Below, piece by piece: positions 35,925-40,369 of a stretch of 64,000 nt of DNA (position 1 is its first letter; each line of letters opens with the position of its first letter). Under the pieces are notes generated by a model. The model ran no database searches. It saw only the letters and a list, made by a program, of their open reading frames with translations, and was not told the origin of the DNA. The stretch spans positions 16,607-80,606 of the forward strand of contig JAHJJD010000018.1 in the NCBI GenBank assembly GCA_018822845.1, given 5' to 3'. A program made the translations under genes and the position numbers. The DNA comes from Gammaproteobacteria bacterium (GTDB taxonomy: Bacteria; Pseudomonadota; Gammaproteobacteria; Thiotrichales; Thiotrichaceae).

Positions 35925-36878
35925 TCACAACATCTGAGCTGCCGCTTCTGCTTTCAGCCAATCCACAAAAGCCTCCACTGCGGGCTGGTTCGCCTCTACA
36001 GTCTGCGGGCGCATCACGTAATAAGCCTGTTCCAGCGGCATTGGCAGATCAAACGGAATGCACAGCTTCCCGGCCTCAATATCCAGTTGCGCCAGATGAT
36101 TGAGGCTGAGCAACACGCCCTGCCCGTCCACCGCTGCATCCAGTGCCAACGCTACGTGATTAAAATGTAATCCCCGGTTAGCCTTGACGCCCTCAATACC
36201 CTGCAATTCCAGCCACATTGACCAGTCCGGACGCCCGACATAAGCGGTATCGTCATGCAGCAAGGTATGAAACACCAGATCTTCGGGCTTTTTCAACGGA
36301 TGCGGGTGCGAGTCGCTAACCAGTTCAGGGCTGCATAATGGCACAACCATCACGGGAAACAGCTTTTCCTCCCGGACACTGGATAAACGGCTGGAGCCGA
36401 AGCGGATGATGACATCAATGCCATGCTGAAGAAAAAAGCTTTCCATGCTCTTTTTTTCCAGCGGAAAATCAGCGTCCACCAGGCTTGCGTCACTGCTGAT
36501 CTGCATATCGATGTCAGGGTGGTGCTGGGAAAAGCGGTGCAGGCGCGGCACCAGCCATTTGGAAGCAAAGGAAGGCGCAGTCCAGACCGTGATACTTTCC
36601 GCTGGTCTTGCACCCCGCATCAGGCTGACCGCTTCCGCCAGACTGTCGAACCCTGCCCGTAGCTTGGGCAGGGCAGCTTCCGCCCCCCCAGTCAGGACAA
36701 GTCTCCTGCTCTTGCGCTCAATCAGGGTTAAGCCCAGGAAATCCTCCAGATATTTGATCTGGTGACTGATGGCTGCACGGGTCACATTGAGTTCTTCCGC
36801 CGCCCTGGTAAAGCTCAGGTGGCGAGTAACAGCCTCAAAGGCGCGCAAGGCGTTCAACGGTGGTAATTGTTGTGACAT
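35925..36878 (-). CDS. GcvA-family LysR transcriptional regulator
   Basis: LPPLNALRAFEAVTRHLSFTRAAEELNVT HTH, SFASKWLVPRLHRF, LLHDD...W..W and AAVDGQGV. Confidence 0.9.
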   Translation of the reverse strand: MSQQLPPLNALRAFEAVTRHLSFTRAAEELNVTRAAISHQIKYLEDFLGLTLIERKSRRLVLTGGAEAALPKLRAGFDSLAEAVSLMRGARPAESITVWTAPSFASKWLVPRLHRFSQHHPDIDMQISSDASLVDADFPLEKKSMESFFLQHGIDVIIRFGSSRLSSVREEKLFPVMVVPLCSPELVSDSHPHPLKKPEDLVFHTLLHDDTAYVGRPDWSMWLELQGIEGVKANRGLHFNHVALALDAAVDGQGVLLSLNHLAQLDIEAGKLCIPFDLPMPLEQAYYVMRPQTVEANQPAVEAFVDWLKAEAAAQML

Positions 36879-36940
36879 GATATGATGATGTCTTGGCTGT
36901 ATTTATCGGCCAACAGCTTAGCACCATTCACGACATTGCG

Positions 36941-37360
36941 ATGACTATTTACCAACAGATTTTAAGCATCCCGACACAGGGACGCGGCACTTACAACATT
37001 ACCGCCAAAGTGGATGACAGTATCCACCAGAGTGGTATCAAGACGGGCTTGTGCCATGTATTCATCCATCACACCAGCGCATCGCTGATTATCACCGAAA
37101 ACGCCGACCCGGATGTGCGCCGCGACCTGGAAACCATCCTCAAACGCCTTGCTCCTGACGGCGACCCCAGCTACCGCCACACGGATGAGGGGATCGATGA
37201 TATGTCAGCACATGTGCGCTGTATGCTAACCAATACGGATGTAACTATCCCCGTCACACGCGGGCAAAGCGCATTGGGTACGTGGCAGGGCTTGTATCTC
37301 TACGAACACCGGGCAGGACGCTTCCAGCGCAAGCTGACCATAACCATTTCTGGGGAATGA
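36941..37360 (+). CDS. yjbQ: YjbQ/UPF0047 family protein
   Basis: HTSASL, NADPDVRRDL, HTDEGIDDMSAH and LGTWQGLYLYEHR. Confidence 0.9.
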   Translation: MTIYQQILSIPTQGRGTYNITAKVDDSIHQSGIKTGLCHVFIHHTSASLIITENADPDVRRDLETILKRLAPDGDPSYRHTDEGIDDMSAHVRCMLTNTDVTIPVTRGQSALGTWQGLYLYEHRAGRFQRKLTITISGE

Positions 37361-38755
37361 TCATTTCCCCCGCACCTTCTCGCGGTAGAACAGGTTCCAG
37401 GTATCAAACGGGTAAATCTTGCCGTTCGGCTCGACGAAATGCGTACACGACCGTTTTACCGAGCCGATGTCAAAATCGTATTTGTCCATGAACGCCATGA
37501 TGACGATGCGGAATACATTGTCGTAAGTCAGCCCCTCACTCTGGATGCGCGGCAAGCAACACAGCATGGTTTGCAGGTTATCGGTGGTCTGTTCACTGCA
37601 CGCATCCAGCGAAAATAGTTTGAGGAAAGCATCTTTCAATCCGGCACTTTTTTCAAAGGTAATGGTGTTGTCCACGCCCTTGAGCAGCTCTTCACGCGGC
37701 AGCAAACCCGTTACCGGCACGATTTCCCCGCCCATTTTAATGCCGTAGCCGATAGAAATGTTTTCCGGGTGACACGGCAGCGGGATCATGTCGGTATCGC
37801 CAAACGGGTTGTCGGCCTCGACGATGCGGGTGCGGATTTCACTCAGGGTAATCCTGTGTTGGCTTCGACTCGCTCCCTGAGCAGAGTCGAAGGGAACCTC
37901 ATTGCGTCCTGCATCTTGTACCGGCTGGAAAGTAATGCCACGCACGCACTTCCACTGTTGGGCAAACTGGATGATCTCGCCGATTTCATCGTCATTCACC
38001 CCCTTGCGGATCACGCACACCAGCGTAGTGGAAATATTGTGCTGTTCCAGCTTTTCCAGCGCTTGCTGGCGGATATTGCGCATATCCTGCCCGCGAATAT
38101 TTTGTAGCGCCGCAGCCTTGAGCGAATCGAATTGCAAGTAGACCTCGAAACCCGGCTTGAGGCTGGCGAGGTCTTCCACCAAATGTGGGTCACGCGCAAT
38201 GCGGATGCCATTGGTATTGAGCATCAAATGGCGGATCGGGCTGGCCTTCAGGCGGCGTAAAATATCCATCAACTGCGGATGCAAGGTCGGTTCGCCACCA
38301 GACACTTGCACCAGATCGGGCTGCTGTTCGCTGGCCAGCAGGGTTTGCAACATGATTTCAAGGTCTTCCATGCTGCGTGGATTACCCATGCCGGGCGCAG
38401 AATTGGCGAAACATACCGGACAGTGCATATTACATTCGTCGATAATTTCAAACAGCGCCAGACAGGAATGCTGTTCATGATCAGGACACAGGCCGCAGTC
38501 GTGCGGGCAACCCTGCTTGATTTCGGTCTGGAAAGCCTCCGGCATGTCGCCCGGTTTCAGGTATTCCTTGCAGCGCTTGTAATAGTCGATGTCGGTGGAA
38601 ATCAGGGTCTTTTGCACGCCGTGTTCCGCGCAACGCTTCTGGTAATACACATTGCCGTGCTGGAACAGGATTTTGGCAGGCACGACCGTGAGGCATTCTT
38701 CACACAGTGATTGTGTCTGGCCGTAGAAAATGTAGGGACGGGCTTTGTTGCTCAA
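37361..38755 (-). CDS. Radical SAM enzyme of the Tes/GDGT-MAS (MJ0619)-like family
   Basis: N-terminal CEEC...CAEH metal site, GCPHDCGLCPDH auxiliary motif, CNMHCPVC radical-SAM triad, VSGGEPTLHP, LNTNG, VYLQFD, C-terminal KRSCTHF...YPFD. The TTG start at 38755 overlaps the upstream TGA (TTGA coupling). Confidence 0.85.
   Translation of the reverse strand: MSNKARPYIFYGQTQSLCEECLTVVPAKILFQHGNVYYQKRCAEHGVQKTLISTDIDYYKRCKEYLKPGDMPEAFQTEIKQGCPHDCGLCPDHEQHSCLALFEIIDECNMHCPVCFANSAPGMGNPRSMEDLEIMLQTLLASEQQPDLVQVSGGEPTLHPQLMDILRRLKASPIRHLMLNTNGIRIARDPHLVEDLASLKPGFEVYLQFDSLKAAALQNIRGQDMRNIRQQALEKLEQHNISTTLVCVIRKGVNDDEIGEIIQFAQQWKCVRGITFQPVQDAGRNEVPFDSAQGASRSQHRITLSEIRTRIVEADNPFGDTDMIPLPCHPENISIGYGIKMGGEIVPVTGLLPREELLKGVDNTITFEKSAGLKDAFLKLFSLDACSEQTTDNLQTMLCCLPRIQSEGLTYDNVFRIVIMAFMDKYDFDIGSVKRSCTHFVEPNGKIYPFDTWNLFYREKVRGK
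37861..37897 (+). repeat. REP-like element (GCTCCCTGAGCAGAGTCGAAGGGAAC plus a partial inverted copy) in frame inside the radical SAM gene
   Basis: Two mismatches from the reconstructed 26-nt element at 15122-15171; encodes VPFDSAQGASRS on the minus strand. Confidence 0.75.
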
Positions 38756-39084
38756 TGGAAATTGCTCCCTGACAGACTCATCAGTATCACCACACAACTA
38801 CCCAGTGCCAGAAAATACATCAGCCCCGTTCCACCCAACAGCATCAGCATGGATTTGGAAAAAGGCTTGGCCGTATCCAGAAACCACTTCAGTGACACCC
38901 CGTGGATTGCCGCCTGAATCAATGCTGGTAGCAGCAAAATACCCATGGAATCTGTCAAGGTTGCACCCAACAATATAATGACCGGAGTCAGCAAAATAAC
39001 CCACAGCAACCAGAAAATTACTTTCTGCCCTACTGTGCGGGGCTCGACTGGGGAAGCAACTGTTTCGACGGAATTGTCAGCCAT
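38752..39084 (-). CDS. Small multi-pass membrane protein with a C-terminal LALGSC motif
   Basis: 110 aa with about three hydrophobic segments. Start overlaps the Lgt-like stop by 8 nt and stop overlaps the radical SAM start. Confidence 0.75.
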   Translation of the reverse strand: MADNSVETVASPVEPRTVGQKVIFWLLWVILLTPVIILLGATLTDSMGILLLPALIQAAIHGVSLKWFLDTAKPFSKSMLMLLGGTGLMYFLALGSCVVILMSLSGSNFH

Positions 39085-39778
39085 GAGTTTTCCTTGTTGT
39101 TAGCAGCATCCGCCCAGCATAGCCGATCAGCAACAAACACAACAACTGGAACAGATTGATAGAGTAGAAAACTGAGGAATAGGGCTTGATGAATTCCCAA
39201 ATAAAACGTTGCCACGAGTAAACCATAACAAACACATAAAAGCCCTGGGCCTGCCAAAACAACGGATTGCGCGGATAACGCATTAGCAAGACAGTCAGAA
39301 ATACCAGCATGGTCAGACTTTCATACAATTGCACCGGATGCCGCTTTACTCCATCACCGAAATCCACACCCCACGGCAGGCTGGTTTCCGTACCATAGGT
39401 GAAATCCGGCAGGCCTGCGAGGAAGCAGCCTACCCGCCCAACTGCAATCAACATGATCAGACCGGGGACGAAATACAGGCCAGTGGATCGGCGGATTCCG
39501 GCGAAGTGCTTGAAGGTTTCCGCCGCCACAATCGCACCAAACACACCACCCAACATACTTTTGGCGATACCGTCTTGCCCCGACAGGTGCAGATTGAGCG
39601 TACCGAACAACGTACTGCCGACAACCAACCCCAGCAGCAAAGCCAGCAGATAATAATGATGCTGAGAGGTCTCTGTAATCCCCGCCGGACGCTGCAATCC
39701 ATACTTGCGCCGGAACCATAGGCTCACCAATACGCCACTTGCCAGCGCCAACAAATCAAAAATGAAGTGAAGCAGCAT
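39077..39778 (-). CDS. Atypical prolipoprotein diacylglyceryl transferase (Lgt-family paralogue)
   Basis: GRVGCFLAG, LPWGVDFGDG..RHPVQLYES and RFIWEFIK motifs of the Lgt family. The usual GGxSxHGG segment reads IAKSMLGG. Confidence 0.85.
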   Translation of the reverse strand: MLLHFIFDLLALASGVLVSLWFRRKYGLQRPAGITETSQHHYYLLALLLGLVVGSTLFGTLNLHLSGQDGIAKSMLGGVFGAIVAAETFKHFAGIRRSTGLYFVPGLIMLIAVGRVGCFLAGLPDFTYGTETSLPWGVDFGDGVKRHPVQLYESLTMLVFLTVLLMRYPRNPLFWQAQGFYVFVMVYSWQRFIWEFIKPYSSVFYSINLFQLLCLLLIGYAGRMLLTTRKTHG

Positions 39779-39822: not shown

Positions 39823-39975
39823 TCAGCGGTTGGCAGGCTGAGGAGGCGTTTCCGCAGAAGCAGGCGGCTCGACCGGACGTGAATTATTACTATATGGCAA
39901 ACCGGAACAACCCAGCGCAATCCAGACAGCAACAACTCCGGCGGCAACCCAGACAAAGTGTTTGATATTAACCAT
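39823..39975 (-). CDS. Unannotated 50-aa lipoprotein-like peptide
   Basis: MVNIKHFVWVAAGVVAVWIALG-CSGLPYSNNSRPVEPPASAETPPQPANR*: basic N-region, hydrophobic h-region, Cys23 after IALG, and GGAGG 7 nt upstream. Below the ORF-track length cut-off. Confidence 0.7.
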   Translation of the reverse strand: MVNIKHFVWVAAGVVAVWIALGCSGLPYSNNSRPVEPPASAETPPQPANR

Positions 39976-39981
39976 GACGCA

Positions 39982-39999
39982 CCCTCCTTTTCAGGAGAG
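39982..39999 (-). promoter_or_regulatory. Hairpin CUCUCCU-GAAA-AGGAGGG sequestering the Shine-Dalgarno of the 50-aa ORF
   Basis: 7-bp stem with a GNRA tetraloop; the 3' arm is the RBS. Confidence 0.5.
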
Positions 40000-40069
40000 T
40001 ATATATGTAAAATGCCTGCCGGACACTTAAACCAGACAGGCAAGCCCAATCAACACACTCACAACAAAA

Positions 40070-40369
40070 CTAGAAAGAAATATAAGAAAGCAGGCCGACC
40101 TGAGCCAGATAAGGCAGCACAATGACGCTCAGCCCCAACCAGCGCAACATGCCATTCATGGAACAGGTAGCCTTGATAAACTGGAACCACAATGTCATCA
40201 GTAATAAAATTTGTGAAACAGCTACCGACGTTGATAATGCCCGAGCTGAAGCATCAATGGATAAAATGGGATTTGAAAAGAAATTAACAACGACAAACAA
40301 ACTACCTAAAAGCCACAATGCAATAAAAGTGGCTTTTTCCCCAAACGAATAATGATAACGGTAAAACAT
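40070..40369 (-). CDS. Small hydrophobic membrane protein (hypothetical)
   Basis: 99 aa, about three TM segments, GAGGG RBS, AT-rich codons. Confidence 0.6.
   Translation of the reverse strand: MFYRYHYSFGEKATFIALWLLGSLFVVVNFFSNPILSIDASARALSTSVAVSQILLLMTLWFQFIKATCSMNGMLRWLGLSVIVLPYLAQVGLLSYISF

What the first reader, a model, noticed from the sequence alone, without database searches (positions are those of the whole stretch)
39823..39975. Unannotated 50-aa lipoprotein-like ORF directly upstream of the Lgt paralogue
Seen: strong GGAGG at 7 nt, an n-region (KH), a 16-residue h-region, IALG-C, and a 28-residue Pro-rich polar mature part. It is missed by the ORF track. Inference: a natural dedicated substrate for the adjacent Lgt paralogue; its slightly non-canonical lipobox (Ala at -3) could explain the need for a private transferase. 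After processing it would be mostly lipid anchor, like a ribosomally made lipopeptide.
Basis: partly seen in the sequence, partly recalled or inferred. Interest (0 to 1): 0.75.

Follow-up and report, generated by a model that had tools for sequence, protein, structure and literature searches.

The report
Small lipoprotein gene heading Lgt-paralogue operon
The 50-codon reading frame is a real, selected gene for a tiny lipoprotein-type peptide found only in Thiothrix. It always sits at the head of an undescribed operon that pairs a second, altered copy of the lipoprotein-lipidating enzyme Lgt with a relative of the archaeal lipid-tail-joining enzyme Tes, so it is a good test substrate for a possibly new protein-lipidation system.

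Summary
GGAGG lies 7 nt before the ATG. The n-region is MVNIKH, the h-region has 16 residues, the lipobox is IALG-C, and the Pro-rich mature part has 28 residues.

It is a real gene. Seven orthologues give pairwise dN/dS of 0.12-0.28 at near-saturated dS. SD, length and the motif LA[LM]GCS are kept.

The family is tiny, 14 clusters among 5.8 billion proteins, and in practice restricted to Thiothrix. There it always sits in the Lgt-paralogue/Tes-like radical SAM operon, in three gene orders and three genomic settings. In one order it is the only small protein present.

It is not a general part of that operon. About 75 of 80 species-level loci lack it. They carry other small membrane proteins, each with one invariant Cys after a hydrophobic helix.

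So the reading "partner, perhaps substrate, of the Lgt paralogue" is partly supported, but only by synteny. The argument "odd lipobox needs a private transferase" is not supported. ALGC-type boxes occur in the genome's other predicted lipoproteins, and canonical Lgt, LspA and Lnt are all present. The paralogue also lacks H103, the HWYG segment that holds Y26, N146 and E151.

No expression data could be obtained. Interest is moderate to high.

The parts
39823..39975 (-). P0001: 50-aa lipoprotein-type precursor. Signal peptide aa 1-22; lipobox I-A-L-G-C; Cys23 = 39909-39907; mature peptide aa 23-50.
   Evidence: sequence. (dN/dS 0.12-0.28). (invariant W9, A20, G22, C23, S24). (passes the strict lipoprotein rule).
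39982..39989 (-). Shine-Dalgarno AAGGAGGG; the GGAGG ends 7 nt before the ATG.
   Evidence: SD-like sequences stand before all 9 homologues.
39973..40007 (-). Predicted hairpin that pairs the SD with upstream ACUCUCCU. A possible translational control element; status uncertain.
   Evidence: -19 kcal/mol for the 71-nt stretch folded (window 40030-39960), z = -2.6. The anti-SD sequence is also present in L003 and L005 but not in the other gene order.
40070..40369 (-). P0006: 99-aa three-helix membrane protein of the cluster's small TM family. This copy has lost the C-terminal Cys motif.
39077..39778 (-). P0002: Lgt paralogue, 233 aa, seven predicted helices.
   Evidence: PF01790, 75.7 bits. (far below the TIGR00544 cut-off). 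(canonical Lgt lies elsewhere in the genome). (motif comparison). (AF2 model, pLDDT 87.7).
38752..39084 (-). P0007: 110-aa membrane protein of the same small TM family, with the conserved C-terminal helix motif LALGSC.
37361..38755 (-). Tes/GDGT-MAS-like radical SAM enzyme. The TTG start overlaps the P0007 stop (TTGA).
   Evidence: Radical_SAM, Zn_ribbon_HMPTM. (TrsS 294 bits and Tes 275 bits, both below cut-off). (start codon).

Best explanation
P0001 is a translated, Thiothrix-specific micro-lipoprotein precursor. It acts as a lineage-specific third component of a conserved membrane module: an Lgt paralogue, a Tes-like radical SAM enzyme, and small proteins that each carry one invariant Cys.

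Shown: the gene is under purifying selection. It has a complete Sec/lipobox-type signal. It stays with the enzyme pair through rearrangements.

Inferred: the N-in signal helix places Cys23 at the periplasmic face of the inner membrane. The Cys of the module's other small proteins should sit in the same place. There its thiol receives a glycerolipid, from the Lgt paralogue, from the housekeeping Lgt, or from both. The paralogue keeps the diacylglycerol-pocket residues R143, Y235, R239 and E243 but has a remodelled acceptor side. The Tes-like enzyme then alters the lipid tails. A 27-31-residue Pro-rich lipopeptide would be left on the membrane.
For: - Real gene: dN/dS 0.12-0.28; conserved SD and length; invariant LA[LM]GCS.
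- Linkage in the own genus: every orthologue of 57% identity or more whose contig reaches far enough lies directly upstream in the operon. Three orders are seen: TM(no Cys)-P0001-Lgt-like-TM(Cys)-rSAM next to truB; P0001-TM-Lgt-like-rSAM; and P0001-Lgt-like-rSAM with a TTGA overlap and no TM gene.
- In G088 the TM gene is cut down to a 44-aa remnant without the Cys.
- The enzyme pair is adjacent in 77 of 78 informative loci.
- Small ORFs with a hydrophobic helix followed by [GSAL]-C make up 9.4% of nearby same-strand small ORFs, against 0.3-1.0% in controls. They form several unrelated families, often in tandem copies.
- The paralogue keeps R143, Y235, R239 and E243 (residue roles from PMC4728403).
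Against:
- P0001 is missing from most modules, including 7 of 12 module-bearing genomes of its own genus. It is therefore dispensable for the module.
- Its lipobox is ordinary and canonical Lgt, LspA and Lnt are present. No private enzyme is needed.
- The paralogue lacks H103 and Y26, which are essential in E. coli Lgt. It may not lipidate Cys at all.
- Weak homologues (40% identity) lie beside mtgA in genomes without the paralogue.
- In sister genome G092 an unrelated small lipoprotein fills the same slot. That could mean the 5' end of the operon simply collects passenger genes.
Confidence: 0.45

Rival explanations
1. P0001 is an ordinary small lipoprotein. It is lipidated by the housekeeping Lgt, cleaved by LspA and N-acylated by Lnt. 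With Ser at +2 it would probably be sent to the outer membrane. In the operon it is either a passenger or a non-substrate accessory of the module, such as a periplasmic tether or assembly factor.
For: - The lipobox lies within the genome's normal range.
- The full canonical pathway is present.
- The family is patchy even within the genus, and an unrelated small lipoprotein can fill the same slot.
- Weak homologues occur without the module.
- The paralogue lacks H103 and Y26.
Against: - The association with the enzyme pair survives three rearrangements.
- There is translational coupling, and one gene order has P0001 as the only small protein.
- The first 15 or so mature residues are strongly conserved (CS.LPYSNN.RPVEPP), which points to a specific partner.
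Confidence: 0.33
2. P0001 is an uncleaved single-pass micro-membrane protein and a structural subunit of the enzyme complex. It would mimic the last helix of the TM family. Its Cys would serve as a ligand or in redox chemistry, not as a lipidation site.
For: - hhalign places the P0001 helix and Cys on the TM family's last helix and Cys.
- An internal start in the L010 TM protein passes the lipoprotein rule.
- In the other small-protein families the Cys is followed by hydrophobic residues, so cleavage there is unlikely.
Against: - The hhalign match is not significant (probability 2.5%).
- In P0001 the Cys is followed by a polar, Pro-rich tail and an invariant Ser. This is the typical layout of a cleaved lipoprotein.
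Confidence: 0.12
3. P0001 is a RiPP-type precursor whose peptide, not a lipid, is modified by the radical SAM enzyme.
For: It is a small ORF next to a radical SAM gene, and in other lineages the small proteins come in tandem copies.
Against: - The enzyme belongs to the lipid-acting Tes/GDGT-MAS/HMPTM group, not to the SPASM peptide maturases.
- P0001 has an export signal and a single Cys.
- No protease or exporter gene is in the cluster.
Confidence: 0.05
4. P0001 is not translated. The conservation would then reflect an RNA or DNA element.
For: There are no expression data. A hairpin covers the SD.
Against: Synonymous sites are near saturation while the amino-acid sequence, the frame, the length and the SD are kept.
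Confidence: 0.03

Closest known systems
Classical bacterial lipoprotein precursors, in particular micro-lipoproteins such as E. coli entericidins EcnA/EcnB and LptM (YifL) (from my own knowledge)
   Same: N-terminal n-h-lipobox signal with Cys at +1. The mature part is very short, polar and Pro-rich. Ser at +2.
   Different: No sequence relation: no Pfam or NCBIfam match. The genome has its own LptM-like 37-aa ORF elsewhere, with CGNKGPLY. P0001 is encoded inside an Lgt-paralogue/radical SAM operon.
Lgt, phosphatidylglycerol:prolipoprotein diacylglyceryl transferase (E. coli, PDB 5AZB; PMC4728403)
   Same: The neighbouring P0002 is in Pfam LGT. It matches the genome's own Lgt at 98.4% probability by hhalign. 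It has seven predicted helices and keeps R143, Y235, R239, E243 and the RHPxQLYE motif.
   Different: H103 of HGGL is replaced by Leu. N146 is replaced by an invariant Cys. E151 is not kept. The HWYG segment with Y26 is absent. It scores far below the Lgt equivalog cut-offs.
Tetraether synthase Tes / GDGT-MAS (MJ0619; NCBIfam NF045702; PMC8941075, PMC9433317)
   Same: The operon's radical SAM enzyme shares the Zn-ribbon plus radical SAM architecture and scores 275 bits against the Tes model. Bacterial Tes homologues are known but have no assigned function.
   Different: It is below the equivalog cut-off of 450 bits. The host is a bacterium with ester lipids. The enzyme is always paired with an Lgt paralogue, a link absent from every paper the five literature searches returned.

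Membership tests
Bacterial lipoprotein precursor (PROSITE PS51257-type signal) | K/R in the n-region, an uncharged h-region, the lipobox [LIVMFWSTAG]2-[LIVMFYSTAGCQ]-[AGS]-C, and the Cys at position 15-35. | tested here: met
   K5; 16-aa h-region; I-A-L-G-C with Cys at 23. It passes both the loose and the strict rule scripts. The lipobox is invariant in 9 homologues.
Bacterial lipoprotein precursor (PROSITE PS51257-type signal) | S-diacylglyceryl Cys and signal peptidase II cleavage, shown by globomycin sensitivity or mass spectrometry. | not testable with these tools
   No proteomic or labelling data. SignalP and LipoP are not available here.
Bacterial lipoprotein precursor (PROSITE PS51257-type signal) | The host has Lgt, LspA and Lnt. 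| tested here: met
   Lgt on C86 at 282 bits. LspA on C73 at 139 bits. Lnt on C65 at 280 bits.
Lgt (functional prolipoprotein diacylglyceryl transferase), tested for the neighbour P0002 | Membership of the LGT sequence family. | tested here: met
   PF01790 at 75.7 bits against a cut-off of 24.9. hhalign to the genome's own Lgt: 98.4%, E = 7e-15.
Lgt (functional prolipoprotein diacylglyceryl transferase), tested for the neighbour P0002 | Catalytic residues R143 and R239, with Y235 and E243. | tested here: met
   R115, R191, Y187 and E195 are invariant in 17 paralogues and align to these residues (roles from PMC4728403).
Lgt (functional prolipoprotein diacylglyceryl transferase), tested for the neighbour P0002 | The H103GGL motif (essential; proposed site for binding the lipobox peptide) and Y26. 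| tested here: not met
   SFHGG aligns to SMLGG, so His is replaced by Leu. The HWYG segment is deleted (essentiality).
Lgt (functional prolipoprotein diacylglyceryl transferase), tested for the neighbour P0002 | The signature motif G142-RLGNFINGELW-G154 with E151. | tested here: not met
   The paralogue has GRVGCFLAGLPDFTYG. N146 is replaced by the invariant C118, and no acidic residue stands at the E151 position; the nearly invariant D125 lies nearby.
Lgt (functional prolipoprotein diacylglyceryl transferase), tested for the neighbour P0002 | The seven-helix Lgt fold. | tested here: inconclusive
   The AF2 model has seven helices and a pLDDT of 87.7. Foldseek against the PDB gave no match at E <= 0.001 and did not retrieve 5AZB.
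Third component (small Cys protein) of the Lgt-paralogue/Tes-like radical SAM module | Encoded on the same strand inside or next to the enzyme pair. | tested here: met
Third component (small Cys protein) of the Lgt-paralogue/Tes-like radical SAM module | A hydrophobic helix preceded by K/R and ending in small residue(s) plus one invariant Cys. | tested here: met
   P0001 ends KH-h16-LGC. Compare AFGGC and ALGSC and PSGLC and LPGGC.
Third component (small Cys protein) of the Lgt-paralogue/Tes-like radical SAM module | Sequence homology to the other small proteins of the module. | tested here: not met
   hhalign of the P0001 family against the TM family: probability 2.5%.
Third component (small Cys protein) of the Lgt-paralogue/Tes-like radical SAM module | The Cys is modified by the module. 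| not testable with these tools
   Needs mass spectrometry with and without the enzymes.

The most novel reading that the evidence does not exclude
The operon encodes a protein-lipidation system that has not been recognised before. A specialised Lgt paralogue would attach a glycerolipid to the Cys of dedicated micro-proteins, and a Tes-like radical SAM enzyme would then join or remodel the lipid tails. P0001 would be the one variant shaped like a classical cleavable lipoprotein. That would make it the simplest natural substrate for showing the chemistry: a ribosomally made lipopeptide of about 27 residues.
Probability: 0.25. Interest if true: 0.85.

Novelty: new variant of a known kind. Interest (0 to 1): 0.6.

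Why it matters
Hundreds of bacterial "Tes homologues" have no known function, and they have been proposed as makers of the brGDGT lipids used in climate reconstruction (PMC8941075). In the 78 informative loci studied here, all but one pair such a homologue with an altered Lgt. Most that were checked also carry small proteins with a single Cys. This points to work on a lipid-protein conjugate, not on free membrane lipids.

P0001 is the most tractable handle on that question. It is a 50-aa precursor with a standard export and lipobox signal. Its N-terminal lipid could be compared by mass spectrometry with and without each enzyme.

If the paralogue turns out to be irrelevant to it, P0001 is just a new genus-specific micro-lipoprotein.

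Tried and rejected
- Pfam and NCBIfam scans of P0001, and of the small TM proteins, gave nothing above threshold.
- phmmer of P0002 against PDB sequences gave nothing. Only a profile reached 5AZB, at E = 2.6e-6.
- Foldseek of the AF2 model of P0002 gave no significant match.
- I tested whether P0001 derives from the TM family's last helix. hhalign aligns Cys to Cys, but at 2.5% probability, so this counts as a resemblance only.
- I tested for a single origin of P0001 on an Lgt-like tree of 21 family genomes. The tree is unresolved within the genus: 4 changes on the drawn tree, at least 2 forced by supported branches. G089 is uninformative because its contig starts inside the cluster.
- No sigma-70 promoter was found directly upstream of P0001. 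The only candidates lie upstream of P0006.
- The E-values of the distant homologues P0016 and P0018 are circular, because near-identical sequences were in the query profile. Their independent support is (E about 6e-6, 40% identity).
- Earlier notes of this scan describe the same module in other genomes. I read them after I had reached the same view, and I do not count them as evidence.

Full report
**1. The observation**

The ORF lies on the minus strand, 39975..39823. It encodes MVNIKHFVWVAAGVVAVWIALGCSGLPYSNNSRPVEPPASAETPPQPANR.
- AAGGAGGG stands at 39989-39982, so GGAGG ends 7 nt before the ATG.
- The n-region is MVNIKH, the h-region has 16 residues, and the lipobox is I-A-L-G-C, with Cys23 at 39909-39907.
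- The mature part has 28 residues, 7 of them Pro.

The ORF ends 44 nt before the Lgt-like gene (39778-39077).

The lipobox pattern alone is weak evidence. A loose PROSITE-like rule is met by 70 of about 6,400 SD-preceded short ORF starts in this genome. A strict rule leaves 11 short ORFs in 4 Mb.

**2. It is a real gene**

A search of 5.8 billion proteins found the exact sequence already on record, plus two 50-aa relatives. A profile search found 14 clusters in all. One is annotated as a hypothetical protein of Ca. Thiothrix moscowensis.

Seven orthologues from the window, metagenome contigs and genus genomes were aligned by codon.
- Pairwise dN/dS is 0.12-0.28 while dS is 0.8 to above 2.
- Length stays at 49-54 aa.
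- An SD precedes every copy.
- W9, A20, G22, C23 and S24 are invariant. The start of the mature part, CS.LPYSNN.RPVEPP, is strongly conserved.

This excludes a chance ORF and an RNA-only element. No Pfam or NCBIfam family matches.

**3. The setting in the window**

Downstream of infB-rbfA-truB, the minus strand carries five genes.

| Gene | Coordinates | Product |
|---|---|---|
| P0006 | 40369-40070 | 99-aa membrane protein |
| P0001 | 39975-39823 | 50-aa lipoprotein-type precursor |
| P0002 | 39778-39077 | Lgt paralogue |
| P0007 | 39084-38752 | 110-aa membrane protein |
| rSAM | 38755-37361 | Tes/GDGT-MAS-like radical SAM enzyme; its TTG start overlaps the P0007 stop as TTGA |

The genome also has a canonical Lgt, an LspA and an Lnt elsewhere. 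P0002 is therefore a true extra copy.

**4. Distribution of P0001**

The Lgt paralogue has more than 568 relatives among species-representative genomes. They include Thiothrix and Thiolinea, Methylovulum, Gallionella, Thiodiazotropha, Sulfurovum and many Alphaproteobacteria. The radical SAM gene follows it directly in 77 of 78 informative loci.

P0001 is far rarer.
- Only L008 among the 80 loci has it.
- Among 107 genomes of the family, 22 have the paralogue and 5 of these have P0001. All 5 are in the window's own genus.

**5. Within Thiothrix the link is tight**

Three gene orders occur.
- (a) truB | TM(no Cys)-P0001-Lgt-like-TM(Cys)-rSAM: the window, L003 and L005.
- (b) P0001-TGAtATG-TM(Cys)-Lgt-like-rSAM, in a different genomic neighbourhood: L087-L090 and L106.
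- (c) P0001-Lgt-like-rSAM, with a TTGA stop/start overlap and no TM gene at all, behind a PDDEXK_9 gene: L100-L102.

In G088 the TM gene is reduced to a 44-aa remnant. The association thus survives rearrangement, and P0001 can be the only small protein of the operon.

Two observations point the other way.
- Sister genomes G096 and G092 have nearly identical enzymes but differ in this slot. G092 (like L007) carries an unrelated 63-65-aa Cys-rich lipoprotein there, and homology resumes 16 nt before the TM gene.
- Weak homologues (40% identity) lie beside mtgA in a genus that lacks the paralogue.

**6. A general third component**

Every lineage examined carries small membrane proteins next to the enzyme pair, each with one invariant Cys at the end of a hydrophobic helix.

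| Lineage | Small protein | Motif |
|---|---|---|
| Gamma- and Betaproteobacteria | about 107-aa family, 1-4 tandem copies | P[LF][IV]AFGGC or LALGSC |
| Alphaproteobacteria | two unrelated families downstream of the radical SAM gene, again in tandem copies | LxPSGLC[TS]G and LLLPGGCF |
| Campylobacterota | about 100-aa proteins | IFSC or IFVC |

A motif scan finds such ORFs in 9.4% of nearby same-strand small ORFs, against 0.3-1.0% in controls.

Reading the charges by the positive-inside rule, the Cys lies at the periplasmic end of an N-in helix preceded by K/R. This is my inference. It is the same geometry as a lipobox Cys. P0001 fits this class by shape but not by homology (hhalign 2.5%). 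It is the only variant with a polar tail after the Cys, that is, the only one shaped like a cleavable lipoprotein.

**7. The paralogue's active site**

The comparison used E. coli Lgt (5AZB) and the genome's own Lgt. Residue roles come from PMC4728403.
- Kept and invariant: R143, Y235, R239, E243 and RHPxQLYE. These form the diacylglycerol pocket and the catalytic pair.
- Changed: H103 of the HGGL motif is Leu. The HWYG segment with Y26 is absent. N146 is an invariant Cys. E151 is not kept.

H103, Y26 and E151 mutants are inactive in E. coli, and HGGL was proposed as the site that binds the lipobox peptide. The paralogue therefore probably binds a glycerolipid but treats its acceptor differently. 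It should not be filed as a working Lgt.

The AF2 model has seven helices and a pLDDT of 87.7. Foldseek found no significant PDB match.

**8. The "odd lipobox" argument**

Among this genome's own predicted lipoproteins, Ala at -3 occurs in 7 of 90 (loose rule) or 3 of 50 (strict rule), and Leu at -2 in 7 of 90 or 2 of 50. One strict-rule candidate has ALAC. The box is within the normal range, so it does not call for a private transferase.

**9. Verdict**

P0001 is a genuine gene for a micro-lipoprotein-type peptide, specific to Thiothrix and functionally tied to the module. I put about 45% on it being an acceptor or partner of the module. I put about 33% on it being an ordinary lipoprotein made by the housekeeping pathway that merely rides in, or assists, the operon. 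The remainder goes to an uncleaved subunit, a RiPP-type precursor, or no product.

Five searches of the literature library found no description of the pairing of an Lgt paralogue with a Tes-like enzyme. Bacterial Tes homologues are only hypothesised to make brGDGTs.

Earlier notes of this scan describe the same module in other genomes. They agree with what I found independently, but they are not evidence.

Noticed in passing
Window 38752-39084 and 40070-40369 (minus strand); loci L006-L021; own genome C63:5684-6052: A family of three-helix membrane proteins of about 100-135 aa, present in 1-4 tandem copies beside the Lgt-like gene. The C-terminal motif [AF]xG[GS]C is nearly invariant. The window's upstream copy, P0006, has lost the Cys. 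A third paralogue (PFIAVVGC) lies elsewhere in the genome, next to a desaturase-like ORF.
   Followed up: partly
L023-L074, downstream of the radical SAM gene (for example L023:7079-7357, L059:7275-7484): Alphaproteobacterial clusters carry two unrelated families of two-helix mini-proteins, in 1-4 tandem copies. Their invariant motifs are PSGLC and LLPGGC. No Pfam or NCBIfam family matches.
   Followed up: partly
Window 39973-40007 (minus strand): A 9-bp hairpin pairs the Shine-Dalgarno sequence of P0001 with upstream ACUCUCCU (-19 kcal/mol for the 71-nt stretch folded, z = -2.6). The anti-SD sequence is also present in L003 and L005 but not in the other gene order. It may control translation.
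   Followed up: partly
L007:3157-3354; L114 (G092), about 1000-1150: An unrelated 63-65-aa Cys-rich lipoprotein (lipobox LVGC; CPDGS...CEF..CP) sits exactly where the sister genome G096 has P0001. Homology between the two genomes resumes 16 nt before the TM gene.
   Followed up: partly
Window 35925-36878 (minus strand) and 36893-37360 (plus strand); L003, L100, L106: A GcvA-like LysR regulator follows the radical SAM gene in all Thiothrix arrangements, usually with YjbQ as well. It may regulate the operon. FA_desaturase and NUDIX genes flank the clusters in L100 and L106.
   Followed up: no
Window 38752-38755; L100:5156-5159: TTGA stop/start overlaps with TTG start codons join P0007 to the radical SAM gene in the window, and P0001 to the Lgt-like gene in L100. 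The first-ATG/TTG ORF listing over-extends the radical SAM gene to 38797.
   Followed up: yes
Own genome C15:16232-16346 (outside the window): A 37-aa LptM/YifL-like micro-lipoprotein (LLAGC-GNKGPLYMP). This shows that P0001 is not the genome's LptM.
   Followed up: no
L078: The only informative locus in which an Lgt-paralogue match (partial, residues 43-221) has no radical SAM gene within 2.7 kb downstream.
   Followed up: partly
L001:1474-2262 (own genome C86): The canonical Lgt of this genome is only 262 aa and has a short head region. A small head is therefore not what sets the paralogue apart.
   Followed up: yes
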